A stretch of DNA of 32,000 bases from assembly GCF_000025685.1 (NCBI RefSeq), contig NC_013967.1, positions 660,001 through 692,000 of the forward strand, read 5' to 3'. This DNA is from Haloferax volcanii DS2 (GTDB taxonomy: Archaea > Halobacteriota > Halobacteria > Halobacteriales > Haloferacaceae). The position numbers and the translations under genes were made by a program. Position 1 is the stretch's first letter. Each line of letters opens with the position of its first letter. The notes beneath the pieces are model-generated. The model saw only the letters and a list, made by a program, of their open reading frames with translations. It was not told the DNA's origin and did not search any database. Shown in pieces: positions 5,970 through 18,230 of the stretch.

Positions 5970-7052
5970 TCACAGCAGGTCGTCGAGGTCGTCGCTGTGC
6001 CACATCCCTTTGGGGTCTTCTCGGGGTTCGGTCTCCGCCTTGTCGATGGCCTCGCGGGCGCGCTCCATGAACGACTCGACCCGCTCGGAGCGCTCGACGC
6101 CGCCGAGGAGGACGAGCGACGCGAGTCGGCCGCTCTCCAGCGGGAAGTCGCCGCCGCGGACCTGCATACTGCCGGTCTCGTCTTCGACCCAGCGACGCGC
6201 TCGCTCGACGCCCTTCCGCGGGATGGTGTCGGGCTCGCCGGCGATGACGACCAGCGCGGCGTCCGCGTCGCTCGCGTCGGGCAGGCTCGTCCCCGTCAGG
6301 ACGGCCCGGCGGGTCGTGCTCATGACCGCGTTGATGTTGTCCTCGGCGTTCGGAGAGGCCTCGGCGCTCGCGTAGCCGAGCGCGGCGATACCGCCCGAAC
6401 GGAGGGTGTTGATGACCTCGGAGGTGTCGACGACGCTCTCGCCGACGCCCTCGGTGGCTTCGCCGGCCGCGAGAAGCAAGCCGACGCGGCGAGCGATGGC
6501 CTCGTTGATGGCGTCGTAGCCCTCGCTCATCGATTCGCCGGCCGAGCGGAACGCGTCGTTGTCGACGAGGAGGACGGCGTCGGCCTCGCGGGCGACGGTC
6601 TTGAGCGACCGGCCGGCGTTCACCTGATACAGCGCCCCTTCGTCCGCCCCGGGCAGGATGCCGAGGACGTACACCGGCACGTCGTAGACGCCGGCGAGCG
6701 CCTTCGCGAGGACGGGCGCGCCGCCGGACCCGGAGCCGCCGCCGAGGCCGGCGACGACGAAAATCGACTCCGCCTCGGCCGTCACGCGGCCGTCGAGGGC
6801 GGACATGACCTCGGTCTGGTCCGACTCCATGACCGCGGCTCCGAGTTCGTTGTCGCCGCCGACACCGTGGCCGTTGACGCGGTCTTGGCCGATGAGCACG
6901 GTTTCGACGGGAAGTGACTGGAGGTCCGCTTTCGCGGTGTTCACCGCGACCGCGTCGAGCACCGCGCCGAAGCCCGTCTGCCGGTCGAACGACTGGAGCG
7001 CCGACGCGAGCTTCCCACCCGCTTGCCCCACACCAATCAGGACGGTTTTCAT
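5970..7052 (-). CDS. cetZ: CetZ-family tubulin/FtsZ-superfamily protein
   Basis: The ORF track starts at a GTG at 7091. The internal ATG at 7052 gives the canonical N-terminus MKTVLIGVGQAGGKLA (360 aa). The tubulin signature is GLGGGSGSGGAPV, and LGILPG..EG and VDNDA blocks match CetZ proteins. Which CetZ paralogue this is was not determined. Confidence 0.85.
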   Translation of the reverse strand: MKTVLIGVGQAGGKLASALQSFDRQTGFGAVLDAVAVNTAKADLQSLPVETVLIGQDRVNGHGVGGDNELGAAVMESDQTEVMSALDGRVTAEAESIFVVAGLGGGSGSGGAPVLAKALAGVYDVPVYVLGILPGADEGALYQVNAGRSLKTVAREADAVLLVDNDAFRSAGESMSEGYDAINEAIARRVGLLLAAGEATEGVGESVVDTSEVINTLRSGGIAALGYASAEASPNAEDNINAVMSTTRRAVLTGTSLPDASDADAALVVIAGEPDTIPRKGVERARRWVEDETGSMQVRGGDFPLESGRLASLVLLGGVERSERVESFMERAREAIDKAETEPREDPKGMWHSDDLDDLL

Positions 7053-7142: not shown

Positions 7143-7173
7143 TTTATGACGGATGGCGGGACCACGCCGGTCT
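7143..7173 (+). promoter_or_regulatory. Promoter cassette P1 (TATA TTTATGAC + 23 nt + ATG), leaderless unit 1 of the pilus-like locus
   Basis: TTTATGAC at 7143-7150, CGGGACCAC at 7157-7165, ATG at 7174. The spacing is identical to P2 and P3, and the last 10 nt (CCGGTCTATG) are identical to P3. Confidence 0.6.
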
Positions 7174-7800
7174 ATGACGACCGACCCAACTCGCTCCGAC
7201 GCCGCTGTCGACACCGAACTCGGTTCGCCCGCTTCCAGCGCCTCGCCCACGGCGGACCGTACGGCCGACCGCACCGCCGACCTCGCCGCGCGACTCGACG
7301 CGGTCGAGCGCACCATCACCGACGGCGACGCCGACTTCTCGTCGCTCGAAGACCTCGCGGCCATCGAACGCCGGGTCACCGAACTCGAATCGGCGGTCGA
7401 GTCGCTCACCGACCGCCTCGACGAGATGGACGCCGCGACGCAGGCGATGCGCGGCTACCTCGGCGGCGTCCGCGCGGTCAACGAAGACGTCGAACGCCGG
7501 GCGAACGCCGCGCTCGCCAAGGCCGAGTCGCTCGAATCGGAACTCGTCGACGAGACGGCGTCGCCCGCGCCCTCGCGGTCGACCGACGCGCCCGCCTCGG
7601 AAGCGGCGTCCCACGCCGGACGGACTACCGACGGTGGTGACGGTAGTGGCTCCCAGCGCGCCGCGGAGACCGGTCTCGGCACCGGCACCGCCGCCCCCTC
7701 ACCCGAGTCTCGCACCGCCCCCGATTCCGGCGCACCCACCGATTCCCGCGGCGACTCCGCCGACCGTGGACTGGCCGCCCGCCTCCGCGACGCGCTGTGA
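7174..7800 (+). CDS. Coiled-coil protein with a low-complexity acidic/Gly-Ser-Thr C-terminal half, unknown function
   Basis: The track ORF starts at ATG 7153. I prefer ATG 7174 (MTTDPTRS..., 208 aa) because it sits exactly TATA+23 nt, as in the two sister promoters. The heptad-like region is LAARLDAVERTITDG...IERRVTELESAVESLTDRLDEMDAATQAMRGYL...LAKAESLESEL. The stop overlaps the next start (GTGA). Confidence 0.65.
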   Translation: MTTDPTRSDAAVDTELGSPASSASPTADRTADRTADLAARLDAVERTITDGDADFSSLEDLAAIERRVTELESAVESLTDRLDEMDAATQAMRGYLGGVRAVNEDVERRANAALAKAESLESELVDETASPAPSRSTDAPASEAASHAGRTTDGGDGSGSQRAAETGLGTGTAAPSPESRTAPDSGAPTDSRGDSADRGLAARLRDAL

Positions 7801-8258
7801 TTCGCGTCGTTCTGACGTGTCTGCTCGCGGTCGCCATCGCGGGCGTCGTTTTCCCGGCGGCCGACGCGGCGAGAGCGGACGCGACCACGGTCAAAATCGG
7901 CTCGCTGGCCGACGATATCGCGCACGCCGCCACGACGCTTTCGGCCGCGGAAGACCCGACGCCGGCCGGCGTCGCGGGCGCGCAGCGGCACGTCGTCCTC
8001 GACGTTCCGTCCGGGTCGTGGCGGGCCGCCGGTGTCTCCAACCTCACGGTTCGCGGCGGCGACGGCGTCGAACTGTCGGCGAGTGTCACCGCCGGCTCGA
8101 CTGTCGTCCGTCGCGTCGGCGGTCCTCGGACTCGCGTCGCCGGTGACCGACTCGCCCTCGGACCGGGCGAGCATCGACTCAGGCTGACGCTCGAAGCCGC
8201 TGCGGGCGGTTCTGTCGTCGTCATCGCCCCCGCGACGGCCAACCAGTCGGCGGCGTAG
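7797..8258 (+). CDS. Small exported or membrane-anchored protein, unknown function
   Basis: 153 aa. The GTG start overlaps the upstream stop. The hydrophobic N-terminus IRVVLTCLLAVAIAGVVFPAADAARA looks like a Sec-type signal or anchor with an AxA site. Two N-x-S/T sequons are present (NLT, NQS). Confidence 0.6.
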   Translation: MIRVVLTCLLAVAIAGVVFPAADAARADATTVKIGSLADDIAHAATTLSAAEDPTPAGVAGAQRHVVLDVPSGSWRAAGVSNLTVRGGDGVELSASVTAGSTVVRRVGGPRTRVAGDRLALGPGEHRLRLTLEAAAGGSVVVIAPATANQSAA

Positions 8259-8259
8259 G

Positions 8260-8290
8260 TTCAAATACCCGGACGGGACCACGACCCCGT
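8260..8290 (+). promoter_or_regulatory. Promoter cassette P2 (TATA TTCAAATA + 23 nt + ATG), leaderless unit 2
   Basis: TTCAAATA at 8260-8267, starting 2 nt after the upstream stop. CCCGGACGGGACCAC at 8268-8282 is identical to P3. ATG at 8291. Confidence 0.6.
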
Positions 8291-10273
8291 ATGCCCCTCG
8301 GCTCACCTTCCATCGACTCCCTCTCCGAAACCGTCGCCGCGGCGCTCCCGGACGCGCTCGGCGACCGGCTCGCCGACGCGACCGGCAGCCAGCGCGACTC
8401 CCGTGACTCCGCCGGCGACTGCGGCTGTGAACCCGCCTTCTCGACGCCCACCGACCGCCCCGACGACGACACCGTGACGCTCGCGGTCGACGCCGGCGAC
8501 TGCCCGCACCGCGGGTCGCTCTCGACTTCGGCCCCCTGCCGCGCGGCGGTCGTCGAGGCGCTCGAAACCCGCGACGCCGACCGACTCGTCGTCCGCGCCG
8601 ACGGACTCGAACGCCGGTACGACGCCGACGCGACCGGCTTGCTCGTCGCCGCCGGCCGGTTCGCAGAGCGCGTCCGCTTCCGCGACGACCGCCTCGCAGA
8701 CCGCGCCCGCGATGACCCGCTCGGAGCCGCCCACGAGGCGACGGGTCGCGCCGGGCCGGTCCGCCGCGCCGCCGTCGAGACCGGGCTCGCGGAGGGCGCG
8801 TCCCGAAGCGCCGACTACGGCGACGCACTCCGGGCGGTGGTCGGACCGACGCTCGCACGCTCTCGCGTCGACCCCCGTCCACCGGCCGACGGGCGACTCG
8901 TCGAGGCGACCGACCTCGACACCGGCGCAGTCGCCCGCCGCTACGAGTGCCCGCGCGACCCCGTCTACCATCTCACGCCGCCCGAATCGACGCTCGACCA
9001 GCGCGCCGCGCGGACGCTCGAAGCCGCCCACGACCGACTCGCCCGCGGCATCGTCGACGCCGGCCCCCGCGCGCCGGGTCGCGCCGTCCGACTCGCCGCG
9101 GACGCGGACGCCCCGGTCGAGACGCTCGCGGCGATTCTGGCGAAGCACACCACGGGTAACGGCGTTCTCGACGACCTGTTTTCGGACCCCGCGGTCTCGG
9201 ACGTGTACGTCTCGACGCCCGCCGACGAGAACCCGATTCGCGTCGTCGCCGACGGCGTCTCGATGCCGACGAACGTCCGCCTCGCGCCCGGCGGCGCGGA
9301 GTCGCTCGCCTCCCGCCTGCGACGCGTGAGCGGCGCGTCGTTCTCCCGCGCCGACCCGACGCTCGACACCGTCGTCGAGGCCGGCGGCGCGAACGTCCGG
9401 GTCGCGGGCGTGACCGCGCCCGCCAGCGACGGACTGGGCTTCGCGTTCCGCCGCCACGACGAGACGCCGCTGACGCTCCCCGCGCTCGTCGCCAACGGGA
9501 CGCTGTCGGCCGACGCCGCGACGCTCTGCTCGCTCGCGGTCGAACGCGGGGCCTCGGTCCTCGTCGCCGGCTCCCGCGGGGCCGGCAAGACGACGTTCCT
9601 CGGCTCGCTCCTGTGGGAACTCCCGCGCGACGTTCGCACGGTGCTCATCGAGGACACGCCGGAGCTGCCGGCGTCGAGCCTGCTTGACGCCGACCGCGAC
9701 GTACAGTCGCTCCGAACCGACACGACCGGTGGCCCGGAGCCGACGCCGCAGGAGGCGCTCCACGCGGCGCTCCGACTGGGCGACGGCGCGCTCGCGCTCG
9801 GCGAAGTCCGGGGCGAGGAGGCCGCCGTCCTCTACGAGGCGATGCGCGTGGGCGCGAACGCCAACGCGGTCCTCGGAACCATTCACGGCGACGGGGCCGC
9901 CGACGTGCGCGAGCGCGTCGTCTCCGACCTCGGCGTCCCGGCGTCGTCGTTCGCCGCCACCGACCTCGTCGTCACCTGCGAACACGCTGACGAACACCGC
10001 GTCGCCCGCGTGGAAGAGGTCCGCCCCGTCGGCGACGACGCGGCGTTCGAGACGCTGTTCGAACACGACGGGCGCGCCCTCGAACCCACGGGGTCGGTCG
10101 CGCGCGGCGACAGCCTCGCGGTCGAATCCCTGGCCCGCCCCGGCGAGTCGTACGCGGACGTGCTCGATGCGCTCGACGCCCGCGCCACTCACCTCGCCTC
10201 GCTCGCCGAGACGGAGCGGACGGCTCCAGACGACCTCGCCGCGGCCCGCGCGGAGCGTGGTTCGGGATGCTGA
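8291..10273 (+). CDS. Type II/IV secretion-system ATPase (GspE/VirB11/FlaI/TadA superfamily; archaeal PilB-like)
   Basis: 660 aa. Walker A is GSRGAGKTT, the Asp-box is VLIEDTPEL, Walker B is ALALGEVRGEEA and the His-box is VLGTIHGDG. A long N-terminal region (~250 aa) carries a Cys cluster. The stop is overlapped by the platform gene's ATG. Confidence 0.85.
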   Translation: MPLGSPSIDSLSETVAAALPDALGDRLADATGSQRDSRDSAGDCGCEPAFSTPTDRPDDDTVTLAVDAGDCPHRGSLSTSAPCRAAVVEALETRDADRLVVRADGLERRYDADATGLLVAAGRFAERVRFRDDRLADRARDDPLGAAHEATGRAGPVRRAAVETGLAEGASRSADYGDALRAVVGPTLARSRVDPRPPADGRLVEATDLDTGAVARRYECPRDPVYHLTPPESTLDQRAARTLEAAHDRLARGIVDAGPRAPGRAVRLAADADAPVETLAAILAKHTTGNGVLDDLFSDPAVSDVYVSTPADENPIRVVADGVSMPTNVRLAPGGAESLASRLRRVSGASFSRADPTLDTVVEAGGANVRVAGVTAPASDGLGFAFRRHDETPLTLPALVANGTLSADAATLCSLAVERGASVLVAGSRGAGKTTFLGSLLWELPRDVRTVLIEDTPELPASSLLDADRDVQSLRTDTTGGPEPTPQEALHAALRLGDGALALGEVRGEEAAVLYEAMRVGANANAVLGTIHGDGAADVRERVVSDLGVPASSFAATDLVVTCEHADEHRVARVEEVRPVGDDAAFETLFEHDGRALEPTGSVARGDSLAVESLARPGESYADVLDALDARATHLASLAETERTAPDDLAAARAERGSGC

Positions 10274-12030
10274 ACCCGGACACGGATGCGCCCGCGGACC
10301 CCGACTCGAATCCGGCGGTCCGCACGGCCGTGACGACGCTCGCGCGGCTCTCGCCCGACTCCATCGACGCCGAGCCGAGCGACGAACTCCGCCGGTCGCT
10401 CGCGTTTCTCGACGCCGGTTTCGACCCCGAGACGGTCGTAGCAGCGGGCTACGGCGCGGCGCTCCCCGCCGGACTGCTCGGCGGACTCGTCGCGCTCGTC
10501 GCTCGACTTCCGACCGTCACCGTCGTCTTCGTCGCGCTCGCGGCCGCGCTCGGCGCGACCCACGCGGTTCACACGCTCCCGGTCTGGCTGGCGACGCTCC
10601 GCCGGACGCGGGCGCTCGGGAACGCGCCGGAACTCGTCGGCCGCATCGCGCTTCGGATGCGCATCGAGCCCTCCGTCGAGCGGGCCAGCGCGTTCGCCGC
10701 GCGCGGCGGCGACGACCCGCTTTCGACCTCGCTCGCCGCGCACACCGACCGCGCCCGCGGAACGCCGACCGCGGGACTCTCCGCGTTCGCCGACGCGTGG
10801 CGCGCGTGGTTCCCGGCGCTCGACCGTTCGACCGCGCTCTTGCAGACCGCCGCGGACGTTCCCGCCGGCGAGCGCGACCGGGCCCTCGACCGCGCCCACG
10901 AGGTCGTTCGCGAGGGAACCCGCGACCGCCTCGCCGACTTCGTCGGCTCCGTCCGCGGGCCCGTGACGGCGGTCTACGCCTTCGGCGTCCTGCTCCCGCT
11001 CGCGCTCGTCGGCGCGCTCCCCGCCGCCCGCGTCGCCGGCGTCGGCGTCACCGCCGCGCACGTCGCCTTCGTCTACGACGTGGCGCTTCCCGCGTGCCTC
11101 CTCGCCGCCGTCGGGTGGGTGCTCGTCCGCCGGCCGGTCGCGTTCGCGCCGCTCTCGGTCGATGCGTCCCACCCCGCGGTCGATGACCACCGACTCCTCG
11201 GCGTCGCCGGTGGCGCGGTCGCTGGCATCGTCGGGTTCGTCGCCGCCGACGCGCTCGTCGCACCGTGGCTCGCGCCGCTCGCCGCCGCCGGCCTCGGGAC
11301 CGGAACCGCGCTGTTCGTCGCGGCCCGCCCGGTCGTGGTGCTCAGAGCCCGCGTCCGCGCGGTCGAAGACGGCCTCCCCGACGCGCTCTACCTCGTCGGC
11401 CGCGCCGTCAGCGAGGGCGAAGCCGTCGAATCCGCGCTCGCCCGCGCGGCGACCTCGGTCCCGGGCGAAACCGGCGACCTGCTCGACGAAGCGGTCGGCG
11501 TCCAGCGTCGCCTCCGCGTGGGCGTCGTCGAGTCGTTCCGCGGCGAGTACGGCGTCCTCGAATCGACGCCGGGCCCCCGGGTCGCGGGCGTGGCGACGCT
11601 CCTCGGCCTCGCCGCCAGCGAGGGTCGCCCCGCCGGCCGCGCCATCGTCTCGATGGCCGACCAGCTCTCGGCGCTCGCCCGACTCGACGCCGAGGCCCGC
11701 CGCGAACTCGCCTCGGTCACGGAGACGCTGTCGAACACGGCCGCCGTCTTCGGGCCGCTCGTCGCCGGCGCGACCGTCGCGCTCGCCGACGGGATGGCCC
11801 CCGCGAAGACGCTCGACCAGACCGCCGTCGCAACGCCGCTTTCGACCGCCGACCTCGGACTCGCCGTCGGCGCGTACGTCCTCCTCTCGGCGGTCATTCT
11901 GACGACGCTCTCGGTCGGCGTCGAACACGGCCTCGACCGCCACCTCGTGGCCTCCCGCGTCGGCCGCGCGCTCGTGTCGGCGACGGCGACGTTCGCCGTC
12001 GCGTTCGCCGCCGCGGGGACGCTCGTCTGA
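10267..12030 (+). CDS. Polytopic membrane platform protein (type II secretion system F family; TadC/PilC/FlaJ-like)
   Basis: 587 aa with several long hydrophobic segments. Two cytoplasmic T2SF-like repeats are visible, for example PELVGRIALRMRIEPSVERA... and LPDALYLVGRAVSEGEAVESALARAA...LLDEAVGVQRRLRVG. It overlaps the ATPase gene by 7 nt (ATGCTGA). Pairing with a GspE-type ATPase is the standard arrangement. Confidence 0.7.
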   Translation: MLNPDTDAPADPDSNPAVRTAVTTLARLSPDSIDAEPSDELRRSLAFLDAGFDPETVVAAGYGAALPAGLLGGLVALVARLPTVTVVFVALAAALGATHAVHTLPVWLATLRRTRALGNAPELVGRIALRMRIEPSVERASAFAARGGDDPLSTSLAAHTDRARGTPTAGLSAFADAWRAWFPALDRSTALLQTAADVPAGERDRALDRAHEVVREGTRDRLADFVGSVRGPVTAVYAFGVLLPLALVGALPAARVAGVGVTAAHVAFVYDVALPACLLAAVGWVLVRRPVAFAPLSVDASHPAVDDHRLLGVAGGAVAGIVGFVAADALVAPWLAPLAAAGLGTGTALFVAARPVVVLRARVRAVEDGLPDALYLVGRAVSEGEAVESALARAATSVPGETGDLLDEAVGVQRRLRVGVVESFRGEYGVLESTPGPRVAGVATLLGLAASEGRPAGRAIVSMADQLSALARLDAEARRELASVTETLSNTAAVFGPLVAGATVALADGMAPAKTLDQTAVATPLSTADLGLAVGAYVLLSAVILTTLSVGVEHGLDRHLVASRVGRALVSATATFAVAFAAAGTLV

Positions 12031-12053
12031 GCCGCCGCGAGTTCGTGCTGAGG

Positions 12054-12084
12054 TTTATATACCCGGACGGGACCACCCCGGTCT
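12054..12084 (+). promoter_or_regulatory. Promoter cassette P3 (TATA TTTATATA + 23 nt + ATG), leaderless unit 3
   Basis: Consensus TTTATATA at 12054-12061, CCCGGACGGGACCAC at 12062-12076, ATG at 12085. Confidence 0.65.
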
Positions 12085-12555
12085 ATGCTCGACGCACCGC
12101 TCGATACGCTTTACACGTGGACCGCGCTCTCGGTGGCCGCGACCGTCCTCATCGGGACGGTCGCCGGCCTCCCGGTGACGCCCGCACCCGACGCCTCGGG
12201 GGTCGCGGACGCCGTCGATACCGTGGCCGTCGCCGACTACGACGCGACCGCCGAACACGACCTCGACGCCGACGCCGTCCGCATCGGCCCGCACCGCATC
12301 GGGCTCCGAAACGACGGCGGTGCGGCGCACGCCACGTTCGGATTCGGCCCGGTCACGCCGGTAACTCCCGACTCTCGACTCGGCTCGGTCGCCCGCGGCG
12401 CACCCCCGAGCGCCGTCTTCGACACGGCCGCCGAGTTCGACGCCGCGGCCGAGACCGCACGCGACCGGGACGCCTCGTGGCGGCCCGCCAGCGAACTGCT
12501 CGTCGTCCGCCACGTCAGTTGGGAGGGAACGGATGTCACCGTCGTCTCGGCGTAG
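12085..12555 (+). CDS. N-terminally anchored small protein, pilus-associated (unknown family)
   Basis: 156 aa. It has a single N-terminal hydrophobic helix (TLYTWTALSVAATVLIGTVAGL) followed by an acidic Asp/Ala/Thr/Val-rich domain. It is the first gene of unit 3. Confidence 0.65.
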   Translation: MLDAPLDTLYTWTALSVAATVLIGTVAGLPVTPAPDASGVADAVDTVAVADYDATAEHDLDADAVRIGPHRIGLRNDGGAAHATFGFGPVTPVTPDSRLGSVARGAPPSAVFDTAAEFDAAAETARDRDASWRPASELLVVRHVSWEGTDVTVVSA

Positions 12556-12925
12556 AGCACAGGCCTCGCCCGTCGCCGCGCTCACCGCGTTGCTCGTCGT
12601 CTGCGCGGCGATTTCGGGCTACGCGACGGTGCTCGACGAGTCGATGCCGACCGCCGACCGCGACCTCGCGTCCGCGACCCTGTCGAACGTCGAGTCCGCG
12701 CTCGAAGACGACTCGGGCGTCGTCGTCCTCTCACGGCTCTCCGACGCCCGTGACGCCTGTCCGGACGGCTTTTCCTGCCGCGTCGTCGTCGCCGTCGACG
12801 ACGACCGCCGCGCCGTCGGCCCCGACGCGCCCGCCGACGCCGACACCGATTCGACTCGGGTCACCGTCCGCGCCGAGCCCGGACGCGTCGGCTTCGGCAC
12901 GCTCCGCGTCGAGGTGTGGCGATGA
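12533..12925 (+). CDS. Pilin-like protein with a class III (prepilin-type) signal motif
   Basis: 130 aa. The N-terminus MSPSSRRRAQASPVAALTALLVVCAAISGYA resembles the archaeal prepilin pattern (K/R)(G/A)|x-SPV-hydrophobic. A GGAGG-like SD (GGGAGGG) ends about 6 nt before the ATG. It overlaps the upstream gene by 23 nt. Confidence 0.6.
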   Translation: MSPSSRRRAQASPVAALTALLVVCAAISGYATVLDESMPTADRDLASATLSNVESALEDDSGVVVLSRLSDARDACPDGFSCRVVVAVDDDRRAVGPDAPADADTDSTRVTVRAEPGRVGFGTLRVEVWR

Positions 12926-13806
12926 CCGACCTCGTCTTCGACGTGACGGTGTGTCTACTCCTCGTGAGCGCGAGCATCGGCCTCGTCGTCACCGCGGACG
13001 CCGGCGCGGACACCGGCCTCAACGGCGATGCCGCCGTCGACGCCGACGGGGTCGCCTCGTCGCTGGCCACGAGCACCGCGACGGTCAACTACTCGCTTTC
13101 ACCCGGCGTCGACGCGGCCGACCCGTCGTTGCTCGATGCCGACGACATCGACGCCCGCGAACTCGAACGGACCGCCCACGGCAGCCTCGCCGGACTCCTC
13201 GCCCGCTCGACGCTCGGCGCAGTCACCGTCGATGGCGTTCGCCTGACCCGCGCCCGCGACGACTTCCGGAAGCGGGCCGCCGCCCGCGTCGCCTCCGAAC
13301 TCCCGACGCGCGGCGTCTCCGTCGCCGTCTCGTGGACGCCGTTCCCCGGTTCGTCCGTCCGCGCGAACGACACGCTCGGTCCCGAGCCGCCGTCCTCGGC
13401 GACGGTTCACTCCGCGACGCTCGACGTGCCGAGCGGGTTCCCCGCAGCGCGCGAAGACGCCATCGCCGCCAGCGACGACGGCTTCGACGCCGTCGCTCGG
13501 CTCGTCGCGGACCGGACTGTCGCCGGGCTGTTCCCGCCGACGCTCGCCCGGCTCGCGCTCCGCGGCGACGAGCCGGTATCGACGCTGATGGCTCACCGCT
13601 ACGAGCGGGCCGGCGCGCTGGCGGGGGCCTCCGTCGCGCCCGAGGTCGCCCGCGAGGAGACTCGCGCCGCCAACGCCGACCTCGCCGCGGCGCTGAATCC
13701 GCGGTTCGCAAAGACGATGCGCGCCCGGTACGACACCCCGCGCGCCGCCGCCGAGGCCGTCTCCGTGGGACGCGTCACCGTCGTCGTCAGGACGTGGTCG
13801 CCGTGA
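12922..13806 (+). CDS. N-terminally anchored extracellular protein, pilus-associated (unknown family)
   Basis: The track ORF begins at GTG 12916. The ATG at 12922 forms an ATGA overlap with the upstream stop and has GAGGTG 6-11 nt upstream (294 aa). The N-terminal helix is DLVFDVTVCLLLVSASIGLVV. Sequons NYS and NDT are present. Confidence 0.6.
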   Translation: MTDLVFDVTVCLLLVSASIGLVVTADAGADTGLNGDAAVDADGVASSLATSTATVNYSLSPGVDAADPSLLDADDIDARELERTAHGSLAGLLARSTLGAVTVDGVRLTRARDDFRKRAAARVASELPTRGVSVAVSWTPFPGSSVRANDTLGPEPPSSATVHSATLDVPSGFPAAREDAIAASDDGFDAVARLVADRTVAGLFPPTLARLALRGDEPVSTLMAHRYERAGALAGASVAPEVAREETRAANADLAAALNPRFAKTMRARYDTPRAAAEAVSVGRVTVVVRTWSP

Positions 13807-16800
13807 GACTCGCCGCCGACGACCGGGGGCGGGTTCCGTTCGCCCTCCTCGGCGTGTTACTGCTCGTCGGGAGCGCGACGTTCTCCGGCGCGCTCTCGGC
13901 CCACGACCCCGTGGCCGACCGCCGCGTCGACGACGCGATGGACCGAGCGACCGCGCAGGCCGACGCCGCCGTCCGCGCGGCCGTCGGCGACGCGGCGCGC
14001 GAGGCCGCGGCGAACCCCGTCACCTCGCCCGCGAACACGACCGCCGGGCGACTGCTCTCGGACGAGCACACCTTCCGCGACTATCTTCGGCTCCGAATCG
14101 CGCTGGCCGCGACGGAGCGGCTCCGCGCCGTCTCGGTCGGCCGCGGCGACGTGAACGCGACCGCGACCCTGCCGCGACCGACGAACGAGTCGAGCCTGCG
14201 AGACGCGATGGACCGCGTCTCCATATCGAGTCGCGAGAACGGAACCGTCCTCGTCGCGACCGTCGAGAACGTCTCCGTCGAAGTCGCCCGCGGCGGCCGC
14301 ACCGTCGCCGCCGACTCAGTCACTACGACGGTCGGCGTCCGGACGCCGGTCCTCGCGCTCCACGACCGGACCGAATCCTTCGAGCGCCGCCTCGACGCGA
14401 ATGCGCTGGACGGCGGGACGCTCGACGCGACGGTGACGACCGCGCTGTGGGCCTCGGCGTGGACCCGCGGCTGGAGCCAGTACGCCGGCGCGCCCGTGGA
14501 CAACGTCGTCTCGAACGACCACGCCGCGCTGGCGACGAACGCCGGCGTCCTCCTCGCCGAACAGCAGGCGTTCGGGGCGACGGACGCCGACGCCCGCGGC
14601 GCGACCGGCCGCGACGCCGTCCGCGTCGGTGCCCAGAGCCTGCTCTCGCAGACCGGCGCCCCCGCCGCGCCCGAACTGGCGAACGCGCTCCCCGCACCGA
14701 ACCCGGACGCGGAGTCGCCCGCGAGCGAGGTCCCGACGAACCGGACCATCAACGCCTCCGTCGGCTCCGCCGCCGACCACGCGCTTGTCGGCCTCCTCGA
14801 CGGCCGCGGCGACGCGCCGGCCTACGACGACGTGGTCGCGGACGCCCACCGCGCCGGGGTGGAAATCGACGCCGAAACGGACGTTCTCTCTCGGACCGAA
14901 GACCCGTCGGAGAACTCCGGACGCGGATGGACACTCGTCAGCATCTCGACCGACACGTCGTCGTCGGCCGAGACGGTGCCGACGCGAACTCCGGCGGTCG
15001 ACGCTGACACCGTCGTCGTCGACGCCGGCTCCCGCATCGTGACGACGGTCGAGACGACCACTCGAACGTTCCGCCGGGGCAACGAAACGCTCCAGACCGA
15101 AGCGCGAACGGAGACGAGGACGCGCGTCGACCTCGCGGCCGTCGTCGACCCGGCCGCCGTCTCAGCCCCCGTTCGACCCATCGACCCCGCGGCCACCTCC
15201 GGCGGCGCGCTCGACGGCGAAAACTTCGCCGCGGCCGCCGACGCGGCCGCCGACATGGTCGTGACGCGCGGCGGCTTCGACGACATCGCCTGCGATGTTG
15301 TGACCGGCATCCCGCCCGAACCGCGACAGACGACCGCACCGATGGCAGCCGGTCTCGACCGCTGGGTTCGCTCGGACCTCATCGCGCTCGCTGACCGGGT
15401 CAGAGACCGGCGCGTGACGGTGTCTGCGCGGCGAGTCGCCGCGGGCGAGGTGAACCCCGCCGCAGAGCTCGCGTCCGACCTCCGCGCCGACCGCAGCGAC
15501 CTCGTGGACGCGCCGGCCGCCTACGACGGCGTCGCGGACCGGGCTCGCGTCACGGTTCGCGCGACCTACCTCGACCGCGTGCTGGCGACGCTCGACCGCC
15601 GGGCGAACCAGACCGCGGCGGCGAGCGACGCGGCCAACAACGAGAGCAAGGACGCGGAGTTCGGCTCGCTCTCGGAGGCGGTCCGCGCCGAGGAGGTCGC
15701 CCGCGCGGCGCTCGGTGACTCGCGAGCCGACGGCGCGAACGGAACTGCCAACGAAAGCGGCGTCAGATTCGTCCCCGACGCGGACCCGATGTACCTCTCG
15801 CTCGGCGGCCTCGATGGCGCTGCGGTCCCCACGGTCGCCCGGGGCGGCACGTATCACCCGCTCGTCGCCCGCAACACGAACCTGTTTACGCTCCCCTACG
15901 GCGACGCCGCCGACACGGTTCTCGAACCGCTGTTCGGCGCGAACCGCCGCGTTCCCCTCCGCGTCGCGGCCCGCACGCTCCTCGCGGCCGACTCGACGCT
16001 CGAAAACACGAACGCAACGAACGAGACGCTTGCCGACCGCCGCGACAGGCTCGAAACCGCGGTCGACCGGTCGGTCGTTCCCGCGGAGGAGGCCGCCCGC
16101 CACACGCTTCGCGACCACACCAACCACTCCGTGACGGAGCGCCAGCGAATCTTGGAGCGCTCGCTCGGCGCGTGGGACGACCCGGCTCGTCGGGCGCTGG
16201 CGATTACGAACGGCTCCGCGGCGCGCGCAATCGCCGTCGAGGCCGCCGCTCCGGGAACCGTCGAGGCCGACCTCCTCGAACTCCGCCTCGACGATGCGTT
16301 CCGAGCCGTTCGCAGCGACCGCTCGACGACGGTCCCACAGCGGCTGACGAACCGGACCGTCGAGACGACGCGGACCGCCCGCCAGCAGGCCGTCTCCGAC
16401 ACCGCGACCGATGCGGCGATGAGCGCGACCGAGGACGCGGTCGCAGACCGCCTGAACGACACGCTCGACTCGCGGTTCGACACGTCGTTCAAGCGCATCC
16501 CCGCCGGAATGCCGGTCGCGCCCGTCCCCGGCTCCTGGTACGCCACGGTCAACGTCTGGGACGTGGCGGTCGCCGGCGAGTTCGCGCAGTTCCGCGTCCA
16601 CGCCCGCGGCGACGCCGAGTCGCTGACGTACGCCCGCGACGGCTCGACGGTCGCCCTCGACTGGGACGACGACGGCACCGCCGAGACGGTCGGTCGCGGC
16701 GACCGCGTCTCGTTCGACGTGGAGACGACGATCGTCGTCGCGGTGCCGCCGTCGGGCGTCGGCGTCGGTGACATCGACGGCAACGCGGACGAGCGCTCCG

Positions 16801-16859
16801 AGGGGTGGCAGGGCGGCCCCGGCTGTACCGTCGCGGCCGACTGCCCGCTCGACGAGTAG
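13803..16859 (+). CDS. Large (~1018 aa) sequon-rich extracellular protein with a class III-like N-terminus, pilus-associated (unknown family)
   Basis: This is the real part of the 1864-aa track ORF. The upstream 846 codons are Arg/Pro-rich and overlap genes in other frames. The GTG at 13803 forms a GTGA overlap with the upstream stop; an alternative GTG lies at 13794. The N-terminus is RLAADDRGRVPFALLGVLLLVGSATF. The protein has about 18 N-x-S/T sequons, and its C-terminus GGPGCTVAADCPLDE carries a Cys pair. Confidence 0.65.
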   Translation: MRLAADDRGRVPFALLGVLLLVGSATFSGALSAHDPVADRRVDDAMDRATAQADAAVRAAVGDAAREAAANPVTSPANTTAGRLLSDEHTFRDYLRLRIALAATERLRAVSVGRGDVNATATLPRPTNESSLRDAMDRVSISSRENGTVLVATVENVSVEVARGGRTVAADSVTTTVGVRTPVLALHDRTESFERRLDANALDGGTLDATVTTALWASAWTRGWSQYAGAPVDNVVSNDHAALATNAGVLLAEQQAFGATDADARGATGRDAVRVGAQSLLSQTGAPAAPELANALPAPNPDAESPASEVPTNRTINASVGSAADHALVGLLDGRGDAPAYDDVVADAHRAGVEIDAETDVLSRTEDPSENSGRGWTLVSISTDTSSSAETVPTRTPAVDADTVVVDAGSRIVTTVETTTRTFRRGNETLQTEARTETRTRVDLAAVVDPAAVSAPVRPIDPAATSGGALDGENFAAAADAAADMVVTRGGFDDIACDVVTGIPPEPRQTTAPMAAGLDRWVRSDLIALADRVRDRRVTVSARRVAAGEVNPAAELASDLRADRSDLVDAPAAYDGVADRARVTVRATYLDRVLATLDRRANQTAAASDAANNESKDAEFGSLSEAVRAEEVARAALGDSRADGANGTANESGVRFVPDADPMYLSLGGLDGAAVPTVARGGTYHPLVARNTNLFTLPYGDAADTVLEPLFGANRRVPLRVAARTLLAADSTLENTNATNETLADRRDRLETAVDRSVVPAEEAARHTLRDHTNHSVTERQRILERSLGAWDDPARRALAITNGSAARAIAVEAAAPGTVEADLLELRLDDAFRAVRSDRSTTVPQRLTNRTVETTRTARQQAVSDTATDAAMSATEDAVADRLNDTLDSRFDTSFKRIPAGMPVAPVPGSWYATVNVWDVAVAGEFAQFRVHARGDAESLTYARDGSTVALDWDDDGTAETVGRGDRVSFDVETTIVVAVPPSGVGVGDIDGNADERSEGWQGGPGCTVAADCPLDE

Positions 16860-16917: not shown

Positions 16918-17337
16918 ATGTTGCACGACGCCGCCGCGGAGCCCGGAACCCTCTCGGCCGACGAGTTGCGGGCCGCCTACGGGGACGAGATTCGCCGCGC
17001 AGTCGACGCCGCAGGGACGGAGCCGGCCGCCGAGGCCGCGGGCGTCTCGGAAGCCGCGCTCTCGAACGGCGTGTTGGACCTCACGCTCGAACAGGCCGCC
17101 GCCGTCCTCGAACTCGCCGACGGCAACCCCGACGCCGACGCCATCATCTGGGAGTTCCGCGACCACCTCCTCATGGGCATGACGAGCGGCATCCTCGACG
17201 TGGACACGCTCGCGTCCGAGGTCGACCTCGACCTCTCCGGACAGGAGATTCAGCAGGCCATCGAGGGCCGCACCGCCGCCACGCTGAACGAACTGGCCGC
17301 CATCCACCACGTCATCGCCGTCCGAAACGAGCGATGA
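16918..17337 (+). CDS. Conserved acidic hypothetical protein
   Basis: The internal ATG at 16918 of the track ORF gives 139 aa (MLHDAAAEPGTLSADELRAAYG...). The region upstream of it is Arg/Pro-rich junk overlapping the previous gene. The stop overlaps the next gene's start (ATGA at 17334-17337). Confidence 0.55.
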   Translation: MLHDAAAEPGTLSADELRAAYGDEIRRAVDAAGTEPAAEAAGVSEAALSNGVLDLTLEQAAAVLELADGNPDADAIIWEFRDHLLMGMTSGILDVDTLASEVDLDLSGQEIQQAIEGRTAATLNELAAIHHVIAVRNER

Positions 17338-18230
17338 GAGTCGCCGTCCTCGGCTGTGGCTACGTCGGCCTCGAACTCGCCCGCACGCTCGTCGCCGACG
17401 GCCACGACGTGTGGGGCGTCCGCCGCTCCGACGACGGCCTCGACGCCGTCGAAGCCACCGGCGCGGAAGCGGTTCGCGCCGACGTGACCGATGCCGACTC
17501 CCTCGGAGCGGTCCCCGACGTGGACCACGTCGTCTTCGCCGCGAGTTCCGGCGGCCGCGGAGCCGACGCCGCCCGGGCCGTCTTCGTCGAGGGTCTCCGA
17601 ACGGCAATCGACCAGTTCGCCGCGCGCGACTCGCCGCCAGAGCGCCTCGTCTACACGTCGAGCACGGGCGTCTACGGCGACCACGGCGGCGACTTCGTCG
17701 ACGAATCGACGCCGCTCGACCCGACGACCGACAAGACGCGCGTCCTCGCGGAGGCCGAGCGCGTCGCCCGCGAGTACGCCGCCGAGCGTGGAGTCGAGGG
17801 AACGGTCACCCGGTTCGCCGGGCTCTACGGCCCCGACCGCTACCGGCTCGAACGCTACCTGAACGGCCCGGTCACCGCGGGTTACCTCAACATGGTCCAC
17901 CGGGACGACGCCGCGGGCGTCGTCGCGTCCCTCCTCGAAACCGACCGCGCCCGCGACGACACCGTCCTCGTCGTCGACGACGAACCCGTCTCGAAACACG
18001 AGTTCGCGGACTGGCTGGCCGACGAGTGCGGCGTCCCGCGCCCCGAAAAGCGCACGAAGGAAGAACGCCTCGACGCGGGCGACCTCTCGGCGGCCGCTCG
18101 CCGCCGCATCCTGACGAGCAAGCGCTGTTCGAACGACTACCTCCGCGAACTCGGCTATTCGTTCGCGTATCCGACGTATCGGGAGGGTTACCGGGCGGCA
18201 ATCGACGCCTACCGAGCCGACGGCGACTGA
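17334..18230 (+). CDS. NAD(P)-dependent epimerase/dehydratase-type SDR family oxidoreductase
   Basis: 298 aa starting at the internal ATG. The Rossmann motif is MRVAVLGCGYVGLELARTL. The YTSSTGVYGD block is typical of extended SDRs. Confidence 0.75.
   Translation: MRVAVLGCGYVGLELARTLVADGHDVWGVRRSDDGLDAVEATGAEAVRADVTDADSLGAVPDVDHVVFAASSGGRGADAARAVFVEGLRTAIDQFAARDSPPERLVYTSSTGVYGDHGGDFVDESTPLDPTTDKTRVLAEAERVAREYAAERGVEGTVTRFAGLYGPDRYRLERYLNGPVTAGYLNMVHRDDAAGVVASLLETDRARDDTVLVVDDEPVSKHEFADWLADECGVPRPEKRTKEERLDAGDLSAAARRRILTSKRCSNDYLRELGYSFAYPTYREGYRAAIDAYRADGD

What the first reader, a model, noticed from the sequence alone, without database searches (positions are those of the whole stretch)
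7143..16859. Eight-gene type IV pilus/Tad-like locus with an uncharacterised accessory set and no visible major pilin or prepilin peptidase
Seen in the sequence: a GspE/FlaI/TadA-type ATPase (all four nucleotide-binding boxes intact) and a TadC/PilC/FlaJ-like platform are flanked by six proteins I cannot assign to any characterised family. Upstream lie a coiled-coil protein and a small exported protein. Downstream lie four N-terminally anchored proteins of 156, 130, 294 and about 1018 aa, packed with 23-nt, ATGA and GTGA overlaps, which suggests a stoichiometric complex. Established: ATPase plus platform pairs drive assembly of archaeal type IV filaments (archaella, adhesion pili, Ups/Aap/bindosome-like systems). 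These need class III signal-peptide substrates and a PibD/FlaK peptidase. Inference: no short DUF1628-type major pilin, no peptidase and no FlaH/KaiC-like partner is present in the window. The locus may therefore encode only a priming or tip complex that uses pilins encoded elsewhere, or a short pseudopilus/secretion-type device rather than a long fibre. From memory, homologues in other haloarchaea are annotated only as domain-of-unknown-function families; this is unverified. The biology appears to be open.
Basis: partly seen in the sequence, partly recalled or inferred. Interest (0 to 1): 0.7.

Follow-up and report, generated by a model that had tools for sequence, protein, structure and literature searches.

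The report
Haloferax PilB2/PilC2 type IV pilus locus
This is the already catalogued but never experimentally studied "PilB2/PilC2" (subclade 4F) type IV pilus-like gene cluster of Haloferax volcanii, sitting next to the tubulin-like gene cetZ2. It does carry its own pilin-like proteins and appears to be switched off under laboratory conditions.

Summary
The window is Haloferax volcanii DS2 chromosome 660001-692000, and the genes are HVO_0746-HVO_0753, next to cetZ2 (HVO_0745).

This locus is already in the literature. It is the halobacterial subclade/subsystem 4F type IV filament system, also called the pilB2/pilC2 regulon (Makarova 2016; Brown & Duggin 2023; Sivabalasarma & Albers 2026). I found no experimental characterisation.

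- The six accessory proteins are DUF-only (DUF7310, 7311, 7283, 7285, 7284, 7286).
- No peptidase or KaiC-like gene is in the window.
- The function is open.

"No visible pilin" is not supported. Five of the six accessory proteins have an N-terminal hydrophobic helix. Three families carry a canonical class III R-[G/A] cleavage motif. The AlphaFold2 model of HVO_0747 is a pilin-like "lollipop".

- Three translationally coupled units (g1-g2, g3-g4, g5-g8), each behind a conserved TATA-GGGACCAC-N8-ATG leaderless promoter.
- A conserved tetracysteine N-domain on the ATPase.
- A 1018-aa sequon-rich class-III-signal protein with no match among solved structures.
- Published TSS and RNA-seq tables showing no transcript for g1-g7.

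Verdict: already known as a catalogue entry, with modest interest.

The parts
5970..7052 (-). cetZ2 (HVO_0745), a tubulin-like CetZ. It is the divergent neighbour and the conserved syntenic partner of the locus.
   Evidence: Pfam CetZ_C 4.9e-67 plus Tubulin 2.5e-28. The start is the ATG at 7052, read from the sequence. It is syntenic in most of the 77 loci. The cetZ2 / pilB2-C2 adjacency is published.
7143..7176 (+). Promoter-like site P1: TATA-like TTTATGA (7143-7149), GGGACCAC box (7158-7165), then 8 nt, then the ATG of g1 (7174). This predicts a leaderless mRNA.
   Evidence: The same architecture is found at g1 orthologue starts in many loci.
7174..7800 (+). g1 = HVO_0746. Cytoplasmic Asp-rich coiled-coil protein (DUF7310 / arCOG07564), 208 aa.
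   Evidence: PF23991 7e-30. No TM segment. Makarova 2016 describes arCOG07564 as a unique intracellular coiled-coil component of the halobacterial 4F system.
7797..8258 (+). g2 = HVO_0747. DUF7311 / arCOG10216, 153 aa. Membrane-anchored and pilin-shaped (helix 2-51 plus an 8-strand beta domain), but with only a 3-residue "MIR" N-terminus and no R-[G/A] site.
   Evidence: PF23993 6e-35. 99% identical to HVO_0747. AlphaFold2 pLDDT 81, pTM 0.70. The N-terminus is conserved and the leader is never longer. There is a weak lone PDB profile hit to the helix of type IV pilin PilE1, E 0.067.
8260..8293 (+). Promoter-like site P2: TTCAAATA, GGGACCAC (8275-8282), then 8 nt, then the ATG of g3 (8291).
   Evidence: An exact 18-mer is shared with P3. 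It has 2 matches in the window against 0.06 expected. It is conserved in the orthologous loci.
8291..10273 (+). g3 = HVO_0748 (PilB2). GspE/VirB11-family secretion ATPase, 660 aa, with an N-terminal tetracysteine domain (C44, C46, C71, C83).
   Evidence: T2SSE 8e-17. TadA-like and FlaI models match below their cut-offs. The closest solved chains are A. fulgidus GspE 2oap (4e-21), FlaI 4ii7 (2e-14) and CpaF (7e-12). The four Cys are 98% conserved and the four nucleotide-binding boxes at least 90% conserved in 61 orthologues.
10267..12030 (+). g4 = HVO_0749 (PilC2). Polytopic TadC/PilC/FlaJ-type platform, 587 aa.
   Evidence: It has no Pfam hit of its own. 12 of 19 orthologues hit T2SSF PF00482, best E 2.5e-6. 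It has about 8-9 hydrophobic segments. arCOG01814 is annotated as a 9-TM TadC.
12054..12087 (+). Promoter-like site P3: TTTATATA, GGGACCAC (12069-12076), then 8 nt, then the ATG of g5 (12085).
   Evidence: A TATA box plus a GGGACCA-like box at a fixed distance from the g5 start is present in about 60 loci from many genera.
12085..12555 (+). g5 = HVO_0750. DUF7283 / arCOG04673, 156 aa. One N-terminal hydrophobic helix. The family starts directly with MFD-x-P-x-D-x-WY-x-W-x-G and has no leader.
   Evidence: PF23954 8e-54. N-termini of 74 orthologues. Alignment A7.
12533..12925 (+). g6 = HVO_0751. DUF7285 / arCOG05166, 130 aa. A small protein with a canonical class III signal (MSPSSRRRA|QASPVAAL...). 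It is the best in-locus candidate for a shaft pilin.
   Evidence: PF23956 3e-30. The family consensus is RR[G/A]Q-x-EP-x-AAL, with R8 and Q10 at least 90% conserved and P13 invariant.
12922..13806 (+). g7 = HVO_0752. DUF7284 / arCOG06291, 294 aa. Pilin-like N-terminus with a conserved Asp (D7 in H. volcanii). Most genera have an R-[G/A]-[IV]STV-x-D leader; Haloferax has none.
   Evidence: PF23955 2.5e-90. Orthologue N-termini. D7 is at least 90% conserved. The family is FlaFind-positive in Makarova's table.
13744..13744 (+). Published weak internal TSS (chromosome position 673744), 59 nt upstream of the g8 start.
   Evidence: Babski 2016 supplement row, with its 70-mer matched exactly at window 13674-13744. 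An RNA-seq transcript spans 673755-675064.
13803..16859 (+). g8 = HVO_0753. DUF7286 / arCOG02945, 1018 aa. A large protein rich in N-glycosylation sequons, so probably extracellular, with an N-terminal class III-type motif (DDRG|RVPFALLGVLLLV) and DxDxDGxxE loops near the C-terminus. It is annotated as an adhesin-like surface protein.
   Evidence: PF23957 covers the full length at 1026 bits. The R-[G/A]-RVPFAL motif is invariant in 60 sequences. It has 18 sequons against 5.2 +/- 2.0 on shuffling. AlphaFold2 pLDDT 78.9, a mixed alpha/beta fold with no PDB Foldseek match (best E 0.1). Profile against PDB sequences: nothing.
16918..18230 (+). Context genes: HVO_0754 (DUF5791 / arCOG04674, a predicted HTH protein, 16918-17337) and HVO_0755 (NAD-dependent epimerase, 17334-18230). 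They are syntenic with cetZ2 whether or not the pil cluster is present.
   Evidence: Pfam. Starts. Synteny. Brown & Duggin 2023.

Best explanation
**Identity.** The locus is the Haloferax volcanii PilB2/PilC2 type IV filament system (archaeal subclade/subsystem 4F), genes HVO_0746-0753. It is a self-contained three-unit regulon, not an ATPase/platform pair lacking substrates.

**Unit 2 (g3-g4)** is the motor. It consists of a GspE/FlaI-type ATPase with a conserved tetracysteine N-domain (probably metal-binding; inferred) and a polytopic TadC-type platform.

**Unit 3 (g5-g8)** encodes four translationally coupled proteins, each with one N-terminal hydrophobic helix. HVO_0751 (130 aa) and HVO_0753 (1018 aa) carry R-[G/A] class III cleavage motifs, as do most orthologues of HVO_0752.

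Inferred mechanism:
- The single PibD peptidase, encoded elsewhere in the genome, cleaves these proteins.
- The motor extracts them from the membrane.
- HVO_0751 serves as the likely shaft subunit.
- HVO_0750, 0752 and 0753 form an initiation/tip complex that displays the large glycoprotein HVO_0753 as the functional head (adhesin or receptor). This would be analogous to bacterial minor pilins plus PilY1, or to GspH-K.

**Unit 1 (g1-g2)**, a cytoplasmic coiled-coil protein plus a pilin-shaped but leaderless membrane protein, is inferred to be a basal or regulatory accessory pair.

**Regulation.** All three units are leaderless and share a GGGACCAC box between the TATA box and the start codon. 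I infer that this box is an operator for a common regulator. The locus is not transcribed under standard laboratory conditions, so the structure is conditional.

**Shown versus inferred.** Shown: gene content, motifs, synteny, promoter architecture and transcriptional silence in published tables. Inferred: PibD processing, subunit roles, filament length and the operator function.
For: **Identity**
- g2 is 99% identical to HVO_0747.
- A 70-nt row from the published TSS table matches window 13674-13744 exactly.
- Gene order and sizes equal the Haloarcula hispanica 4F locus: arCOG07564-10216-01818-01814-04673-05166-06291-02945, followed by arCOG04674 and arCOG03095.
- The cetZ2-adjacent pilB2/C2 regulon and subsystem 4F with CetZ2 and arCOG02945 are both described in the literature.

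**Motor**
-.

**Pilin-like substrates**
- g8 family: invariant R-[G/A]-RVPFAL[VL]G, with only G or A at position -1.
- g6 family: RR[G/A]Q-x-EP.
- g7 family: R[G/A][IV]STV-x-D.
- Each has a single N-terminal hydrophobic segment.
- The g2 model is a helix (residues 2-51) plus a beta domain.

**Extracellular head**
- g8 has 18 sequons against 5.2 +/- 2.0 expected.

**Conservation**
- 330 relatives of g8 occur in species-representative genomes, and the eight-gene order is kept in the fetched loci that span the whole region.

**Unit structure**
- Median junctions are -4, +32, -4, +54, -23, -4 and -4 nt.
- TATA-GGGACCA-N8-ATG sits at the g1, g3 and g5 starts across genera.

**Silence**
- The dRNA-seq table has no gene TSS for HVO_0746-0753.
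- The four-condition RNA-seq list has no transcript between chromosome positions 667032 and 673755.
- delta-pilB3 strains are used as pilus-free backgrounds.
Against: - No tool here detects homology of any accessory family to a known pilin. There is no PF07790 hit. Foldseek against PDB and BFVD shows nothing for g2. Profiles against PDB sequences show nothing for g5, g6, g7 or g8, and only E 0.067 for g2.
- The five families are not detectably related to each other (hhalign probability below 5%).
- g2, g5 and Haloferax g7 lack a cleavable leader. This does not fit canonical PibD substrates.
- The g8 model is not a beta-propeller or an Ig array like known pilus adhesins.
- The subunit roles rest only on analogy and gene size.
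- No filament, processing event or phenotype has been reported.
- The transcription tables I read were truncated when stored, although the rows are contiguous across this region.
Confidence: 0.6

Rival explanations
1. Tip or priming complex only. The locus supplies the motor plus a minor-pilin/adhesin set. The shaft would be built from pilins encoded elsewhere: the stand-alone arCOG02981 family proposed for 4F, or PilA1-6.
For: Makarova 2016 links the stand-alone arCOG02981 to 4F as its predicted major pilin. Haloarchaeal PilB/PilC modules are known to use pilins in trans and to cross-complement. Each in-locus pilin-like gene is single-copy and stoichiometrically coupled, which is typical of minor pilins.
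Against: g6 is a small (130 aa) canonical class III protein inside the operon, so a trans-encoded shaft is not required. Whether H. volcanii has an arCOG02981 gene could not be checked from this window.
Confidence: 0.25
2. A short pseudopilus or surface-display device rather than a fibre. The machine acts like a type II secretion or bindosome-type piston. It would export or anchor the 1018-aa glycoprotein HVO_0753 at the envelope, possibly positioned by CetZ2.
For: No PilB2-dependent fibres are seen; delta-pilB3 cells are treated as pilus-free. Two or three of the five pilin-like proteins lack leaders. There is strict synteny with cetZ2. A very large head protein carries a class III N-terminus.
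Against: The absence of fibres is equally well explained by transcriptional silence. No secreted substrate or binding-protein gene lies in the locus. Nothing here measures length.
Confidence: 0.2
3. A decaying or dispensable horizontally acquired island with no current function in H. volcanii.
For: The locus is silent in published transcriptomes. Its GC content is 0.744 against 0.69 in the flanks. Brown & Duggin suggest it behaves like a mobile insertion next to cetZ2. The related 4C locus is disrupted in Halobacterium NRC-1.
Against: All eight ORFs are intact. The catalytic boxes, cysteines, signal motifs, overlaps and promoters are conserved down to 35-45% protein identity across many genera. 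This indicates purifying selection.
Confidence: 0.05

Closest known systems
Archaeal type IV filament subclade/subsystem 4F (Makarova, Koonin & Albers 2016; Sivabalasarma & Albers 2026 preprint), i.e. the H. volcanii pilB2/pilC2 regulon next to cetZ2 (Brown & Duggin 2023)
   Same: The gene order and sizes are identical: a coiled-coil protein, a small pilin-like protein, a Cys-rich-N-domain ATPase, a 9-TM TadC, three pilin-like proteins and a roughly 1000-aa surface protein. The cetZ2 neighbour and the arCOG04674 plus epimerase tail also match. This window is that locus.
   Different: Nothing differs in content.
H. volcanii PilB1-C1 and Halobacterium salinarum pil-2 (subclade 4C)
   Same: Both are halobacterial clade-4 "hybrid" systems: a crenarchaeal-type ATPase/TadC with downstream FlaFind-positive proteins in one operon.
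   Different: 4C has an adhesion phenotype and is transcribed in adherent cells. It uses arCOG01810 TadC and different pilin families. It has no coiled-coil partner, no DUF7286 giant protein and no cetZ2 linkage.
Bacterial minor-pilin tip complexes (T2SS GspH-I-J-K; T4aP FimU-PilVWX plus PilY1)
   Same: This is a functional analogy only. Both have a set of single-copy, co-translated, size-graded pilin-like proteins plus one very large head protein. Some members lack the canonical N-terminal features. g8 has DxDxDG-type acidic loops; from memory, PilY1 is reported to have calcium-binding sites.
   Different: No sequence or fold similarity was detected. The g8 model has no beta-propeller. The analogy has not been tested experimentally.
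Archaellum and crenarchaeal pili motors (ArlI/FlaI-ArlJ; Aap, Ups, bindosome)
   Same: The ATPase core is homologous: FlaI 4ii7 at E 2e-14, with the NCBIfam FlaI and BasE models matched below their cut-offs. A T2SSF platform is present.
   Different: There are no ArlH/KaiC, ArlX, ArlCDE or ArlF/G genes and no archaellins. The ATPase N-domain (tetracysteine) differs.

Membership tests
Type IV filament (TFF) assembly system | GspE/VirB11-family hexameric ATPase with Walker A, Asp box, Walker B and His box | tested here: met
   T2SSE E 8e-17. PDB relatives are GspE, FlaI and CpaF. The four boxes are at least 90% conserved in 61 orthologues.
Type IV filament (TFF) assembly system | Polytopic GspF/PilC/TadC/FlaJ platform (T2SSF domain) | tested here: met
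   The window protein is below detection. 12 of 19 orthologues (45-82% identical) hit PF00482, best E 2.5e-6. It has about 8-9 hydrophobic segments.
Type IV filament (TFF) assembly system | Substrates with class III signal peptides ([K/R]-[G/A] cleavage site followed by a hydrophobic helix) | tested here: met
   The motif was read from alignments. g8 has an invariant R-[G/A]-RVPFAL. g6 has RR[G/A]Q-x-EP. Most g7 orthologues have R[G/A][IV]STV-x-D. FlaFind and SignalP were not available, and cleavage has not been shown.
Type IV filament (TFF) assembly system | Prepilin peptidase (PibD/FlaK) | not testable with these tools
   None in the 32-kb window. The rest of the genome is not available here. 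The literature describes a pibD gene in H. volcanii elsewhere in the genome.
Archaeal subclade 4F (pilB2/pilC2 regulon) | Characteristic gene set and order (arCOG07564-10216-01818-01814-04673-05166-06291-02945) | tested here: met
   Order and lengths match the Haloarcula hispanica rows of Makarova's Table S4. There is one Pfam DUF per position. The order is conserved in the fetched loci that span the whole region. arCOG HMMs themselves were not run.
Archaeal subclade 4F (pilB2/pilC2 regulon) | ATPase with an additional N-terminal cysteine-rich domain | tested here: met
   C44, C46, C71 and C83 are 98% conserved. The feature is described.
Archaeal subclade 4F (pilB2/pilC2 regulon) | Adjacency to the CetZ-family gene (cetZ2) in Haloferacales/Halobacteriales | tested here: met
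   A CetZ gene lies divergently at 5970-7052. It is present in most loci. Literature.
Archaeal subclade 4F (pilB2/pilC2 regulon) | Phylogenetic placement of the ATPase inside clade 4F of the reference tree | not tested
   The reference sequences of the 356-protein tree were not available as sequences. Table S3 lists two clade-4 ATPases for H. volcanii. This is consistent with PilB1 (4C) plus PilB2 (4F).
Type IV pilin (applied to g2/HVO_0747, the published "predicted major pilin" arCOG10216) | Long N-terminal alpha-helix followed by a globular beta domain | tested here: met
   The AlphaFold2 model has helix 2-51 plus 8 strands, pLDDT 81, pTM 0.70.
Type IV pilin (applied to g2/HVO_0747, the published "predicted major pilin" arCOG10216) | Cleavable class III leader with [K/R]-[G/A] at positions -2/-1 | tested here: not met
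   The family starts MIR-hydrophobic. In all 150 best representatives the profile starts at residue 1-5.
Type IV pilin (applied to g2/HVO_0747, the published "predicted major pilin" arCOG10216) | Sequence or fold similarity to established pilins | tested here: inconclusive
PilY1-like tip adhesin (applied to g8/HVO_0753) | C-terminal beta-propeller with calcium sites | tested here: not met
   The model is mixed alpha/beta without a propeller, and it has no PDB match. DxDxDGxxE loops are present in the sequence only. The resemblance is functional at most.

The most novel reading that the evidence does not exclude
The 4F system may not be a conventional adhesion pilus. It could be a conditionally silent, CetZ2-coupled machine whose three leaderless operons are controlled through one conserved GGGACCAC operator. 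It would extrude only a short stalk: HVO_0751, with the leaderless HVO_0750 and HVO_0752 as non-canonical subunits. That stalk would present HVO_0753, a structurally unprecedented 1000-aa glycoprotein with a class III signal, as a tip receptor or adhesin.
Probability: 0.2. Interest if true: 0.6.

Novelty: already known. Interest (0 to 1): 0.3.

Why it matters
H. volcanii is the main genetic model for haloarchaea, and PilB2/PilC2 is one of its five pil systems, with no reported function that I could find. The system is conserved in hundreds of halobacterial species and is physically linked to a tubulin-like cytoskeletal gene. Its function therefore bears on how archaea position and regulate surface machines.

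As a scan result the locus is not a discovery. It has been catalogued three times.

The practical value of this check lies in the leads it gives:
- three defined promoters with a shared box to mutate, or to use as bait for the regulator;
- clear candidates for PibD processing (HVO_0751 and HVO_0753), and non-candidates (HVO_0747 and HVO_0750);
- the expectation that standard cultures will show nothing unless the locus is induced.

Tried and rejected

**Pfam at E up to 10.** g6, g7 and the g8 N-terminus gave no archaeal pilin N-terminal domain. There were only sub-threshold hits to other haloarchaeal DUFs (DUF7261, 7263, 7287).

**Profiles against PDB sequences.** The g4, g5, g6, g7 and g8 families found nothing.

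**Paralogy.** hhalign among the five pilin-like families found none. I therefore could not reproduce the idea that they arose by duplication of one pilin.

**Exhaustive HMMER search with the g2 profile.** It returned only full-length DUF7311 proteins.

**Literature.** Searches for the DUF names, the HVO locus tags and pilB2 found no experimental work. The Archaeal Proteome Project supplements held here do not mention these genes. That absence is not informative.

**Considered and rejected:**
- Natrinema "PilB2-C2" and Halobacterium "pilB2" as orthologues. The names coincide, but the Halobacterium pil-2 locus is the one Makarova assigns to 4C, and the Natrinema pair was not shown to be 4F.
- The ATG at 7153 as the g1 start. 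It lies inside the predicted promoter.

Full report
**1. What is in the sequence**

The region 7143-16859 holds eight co-directional + strand genes:
- g1: 7153/7174-7800
- g2: 7797-8258
- g3: 8291-10273
- g4: 10267-12030
- g5: 12085-12555
- g6: 12533-12925
- g7: 12916/12922-13806
- g8: 13803-16859

So do the junctions: GTGA, a 7-nt overlap, a 23-nt overlap, ATGA and GTGA. The window has 64-77% GC. The locus itself is 74.4% GC, against 68.6% and 69.6% in the flanks.

**2. Where it comes from**

g2 is 99% identical to HVO_0747; the one difference is plausibly the GTG start, which my translation reads as Val. A 70-nt sequence printed in the published H. volcanii transcription-start table for chromosome position 673744 matches window 13674-13744 exactly. 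The window is therefore H. volcanii DS2 chromosome 660001-692000.

That fixes the gene names. g1-g8 are HVO_0746-0753. The divergent CetZ gene (5970-7052) is HVO_0745, i.e. cetZ2; the tag-to-name link is my recollection, and Brown & Duggin's cetZ2 / pilB2-C2 adjacency agrees with it. The downstream DUF5791 and epimerase genes are HVO_0754 and HVO_0755. The genome scan did not return H. volcanii itself, probably because that stretch is masked in the collection. The best returned loci are 92-93% identical Haloferax species.

**3. Family assignments**

Pfam places every accessory protein in a family of unknown function:

| Gene | Pfam family |
|---|---|
| g1 | DUF7310 (coiled coil) |
| g2 | DUF7311 |
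| g5 | DUF7283 |
| g6 | DUF7285 |
| g7 | DUF7284 |
| g8 | DUF7286 (full length, 1026 bits) |

NCBIfam has nothing for them.

g3 is a T2SSE ATPase (E 8e-17). Its closest solved relatives are A. fulgidus GspE (2oap, 4e-21), FlaI (2e-14) and CpaF (7e-12). In 61 orthologues, Walker A (AG-RGAGKTT), the Asp box (EDTPELP), Walker B (GEVRG-EA) and the His box (VLGT-HGD) are at least 90% conserved. Four N-terminal cysteines (C44, C46, C71, C83) are 98% conserved.

g4 gives no Pfam hit even at E = 10. However, 12 of 19 orthologues hit T2SSF, best E 2.5e-6, and g4 has about 8-9 hydrophobic segments. The platform assignment therefore holds by transitive homology.

**4. It is a published system**

Makarova, Koonin & Albers (2016, PMC4858521) describe a halobacterial "subclade 4F" system. 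Its features are an ATPase with a Cys-rich N-domain, a cognate TadC, predicted pilins, a frequent S-layer-like protein, a unique intracellular coiled-coil protein (arCOG07564) and an FtsZ-family gene nearby.

Their Table S4 rows for Haloarcula hispanica give the following order:

| arCOG | Size and annotation |
|---|---|
| arCOG07564 | 170 aa |
| arCOG10216 | 157 aa, "predicted major pilin" |
| arCOG01818 | ATPase, 619 aa |
| arCOG01814 | TadC, 581 aa, 9 TM |
| arCOG04673 | 153 aa |
| arCOG05166 | 131 aa |
| arCOG06291 | 292 aa, FlaFind-positive |
| arCOG02945 | 1000 aa, "surface protein" |
| arCOG04674 | downstream neighbour |
| arCOG03095 | epimerase, downstream neighbour |

This is the same order and nearly the same sizes as the window.

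Brown & Duggin (2023, PMC9856176) name this the pilB2/pilC2 regulon. [quoted passage not shown] A 2026 preprint (Sivabalasarma & Albers) lists subsystem 4F with CetZ2 co-localisation and the adhesin-like arCOG02945.

I found no experimental work on it. The "pilB2" genes of Halobacterium and Natrinema share only the name: Makarova assigns the Halobacterium pil-2 locus to 4C, and the Natrinema pair was not shown to be 4F.

**5. Conservation**

A genome scan with a 60-sequence DUF7286 alignment found 330 relatives in species-representative genomes. In the 77 loci fetched, tblastn shows the full arrangement in nearly every locus long enough to contain it: cetZ2 (divergent), g1-g8, DUF5791 and the epimerase. 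Protein identity goes down to 35-45%.

The junctions are also conserved. Median gaps are -4 (g1/g2), +32 (g2-g3), -4 (g3/g4), +54 (g4-g5), -23 (g5/g6), -4 (g6/g7) and -4 (g7/g8). The locus is therefore three translationally coupled units: {g1, g2}, {g3, g4} and {g5, g6, g7, g8}.

In three loci (L051, L066, L074) the g5-g8 cassette occurs without g1-g4 nearby. This fits modular evolution.

**6. Promoters**

Upstream of g3 and g5 lies an identical 18-mer, ATACCCGGACGGGACCAC (2 matches against 0.06 expected). A close variant precedes an ATG at 7174 in g1.

All three sites read TATA-like box, 7-8 nt, GGGACCAC, 8 nt, ATG. The start codon is about 23 nt from the TATA box, which implies leaderless mRNAs and moves the g1 start to 7174. 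The same architecture sits exactly at the g5 start in about 60 loci from many genera, and near the g1 and g3 starts in most.

A conserved element between the TATA box and the start is where archaeal repressors commonly act. That it is an operator here is my inference.

**7. Expression**

In the dRNA-seq TSS table of Babski et al. 2016, no gene TSS is listed for HVO_0746-0753. There are only weak internal sites in HVO_0752 (673744, 59 nt upstream of the g8 start) and in HVO_0753. The neighbours HVO_0743, 0756 and 0757 do have gene TSSs.

In the four-condition RNA-seq transcript list of Laass et al. 2019, nothing lies between 667032 and 673755. A 1.3-kb transcript covers only the 5' part of g8. 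Both files were truncated when stored, but the rows are contiguous across this region.

delta-pilB3 strains, which still carry pilB2, are routinely used as pilus-free backgrounds. The locus therefore appears silent in standard culture.

**8. Are there pilins?**

Each of g2, g5, g6, g7 and g8 has one N-terminal hydrophobic segment. Their N-termini across orthologues read as follows.

| Family | N-terminal pattern |
|---|---|
| g8 | ...DDR[G/A]RVPFAL[VL]GVLLLV. R at -2 is nearly invariant, only G or A occurs at -1, and RVPFA is invariant. |
| g6 | ...RR[G/A]Q-x-EP-x-AAL, a textbook class III signal. |
| g7 | R[G/A][IV]STV-x-D-...-[CF]LLLVSA in most genera, with a conserved Asp. Haloferax versions start MTDLVFDV with no leader. 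|
| g5 | Always starts MFD-x-P-x-D-x-WY-x-W-x-G. |
| g2 | Always starts MIR plus a hydrophobic stretch. In 150 representatives of the 513-member family the profile begins at residue 1-5. |

The AlphaFold2 model of g2 (70-sequence alignment, pLDDT 81, pTM 0.70) is a 50-residue N-terminal helix followed by an 8-strand beta domain. That is the pilin "lollipop" shape.

Against this, no homology to known pilins is detectable:
- no PF07790 hit;
- no Foldseek match in PDB or BFVD;
- only an E 0.067 profile hit to the N-helix of PilE1;
- nothing for the g5, g6 or g7 profiles;
- no paralogy among the five families.

In summary, "no visible major pilin" is not supported. g6 is a small canonical candidate, and g2 is the published candidate. 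Which protein forms a shaft, if any does, is unknown.

**9. The large protein**

g8 has 18 N-glycosylation sequons among 35 Asn, against 5.2 +/- 2.0 in shuffles. This suggests an extracellular glycoprotein.

Its AlphaFold2 model (pLDDT 78.9, pTM 0.57) is a multi-domain mixed alpha/beta structure with long beta-hairpins. It has no significant match among solved structures.

Near the C-terminus are invariant acidic loops: D953-x-D955-x-D957-G958-x-x-E961 and G-D990-x-D-G993-x-x-x-E997. These have the form of DxDxDG calcium-binding motifs. That is a lead only.

**10. Most likely mechanism**

- PilB2 (hexameric ATPase with a tetracysteine N-domain) and PilC2 form the motor.
- PibD, encoded elsewhere, cleaves HVO_0751 and HVO_0753 (and HVO_0752 in most genera).
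- The coupled quartet assembles at the platform. HVO_0751 is the probable repeating subunit. HVO_0750, 0752 and 0753 form an initiation/tip complex that displays the HVO_0753 glycoprotein.
- HVO_0746 and HVO_0747 form a basal accessory pair.
- The three units are co-regulated through the shared box and are off in standard culture.

Identity and anatomy are shown. Processing, subunit roles, filament length, the operator function and any CetZ2 coupling are inferred.

The rivals are a tip complex that uses trans-encoded pilins, a short pseudopilus or display device, and a dispensable island. They differ mainly in what the shaft is and how long it is. No tool here can decide between them.

**11. 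Verdict**

- The locus is already known as a catalogued, functionally uncharacterised system, so interest as a discovery is modest.

Noticed in passing
window 7143-7176, 8260-8293, 12054-12087: Three promoter-like sites share the architecture TATA box, 7-8 nt, GGGACCAC, 8 nt, ATG. They imply three leaderless transcription units with a common box between the TATA box and the start. The box is conserved at the same genes across many haloarchaeal genera. I did not see it mentioned in the sections of the papers I read.
   Followed up: yes
window 13744 (chromosome 673744), upstream of g8 at 13803: A published weak internal TSS lies 59 nt upstream of the g8 start. A 1.3-kb RNA-seq transcript (673755-675064) suggests that the 5' part of HVO_0753 is transcribed on its own while g1-g7 are silent.
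   Followed up: partly
window 8420-8540 (g3 residues 44-83): Four cysteines (C-x-C ... C ... C) in the ATPase N-domain are 98% conserved in 61 orthologues. This suggests a metal-binding module at the N-terminus rather than in the C-terminal domain, where, from memory, bacterial GspE/PilB proteins carry a tetracysteine motif.
   Followed up: partly
P0118 (metagenome protein, 1168 aa): One relative of g8 carries both DUF7286 and DUF5791, the domain of the downstream neighbour HVO_0754. It is either a true fusion that links the predicted HTH protein to the system, or a read-through or gene-calling artefact.
   Followed up: no
L051, L066, L074 (g5 at about 8200 in each): The g5-g8 cassette keeps its own promoter box (in L051 and L074) but occurs without cetZ2 or g1-g4 within the 8-10 kb upstream. 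The pilin-like cassette can therefore be separated from the motor.
   Followed up: partly
window 16660-16800 (g8 residues 953-997): Invariant acidic loops of the form DxDxDGxxE and GDxDGxxxE lie in the C-terminal beta domain of DUF7286. They have the form of calcium-binding DxDxDG motifs.
   Followed up: no
window 7143-16859 versus the flanks: The locus is 74.4% GC against 68.6% and 69.6% in the flanks. This is compatible with the published suggestion that the pil regulon is an insertion next to cetZ2, or with amino-acid composition bias.
   Followed up: no
window 16918-18230: HVO_0754 (DUF5791, 139 aa) and HVO_0755 (NAD-dependent epimerase, 298 aa) overlap by ATGA. They follow g8 in most orthologous loci.
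   Followed up: partly
window 851-3036 (- strand): A family X DNA polymerase with a PHP domain (582 aa) is followed by a DUF5788 protein. Both are unrelated to the finding.
   Followed up: no
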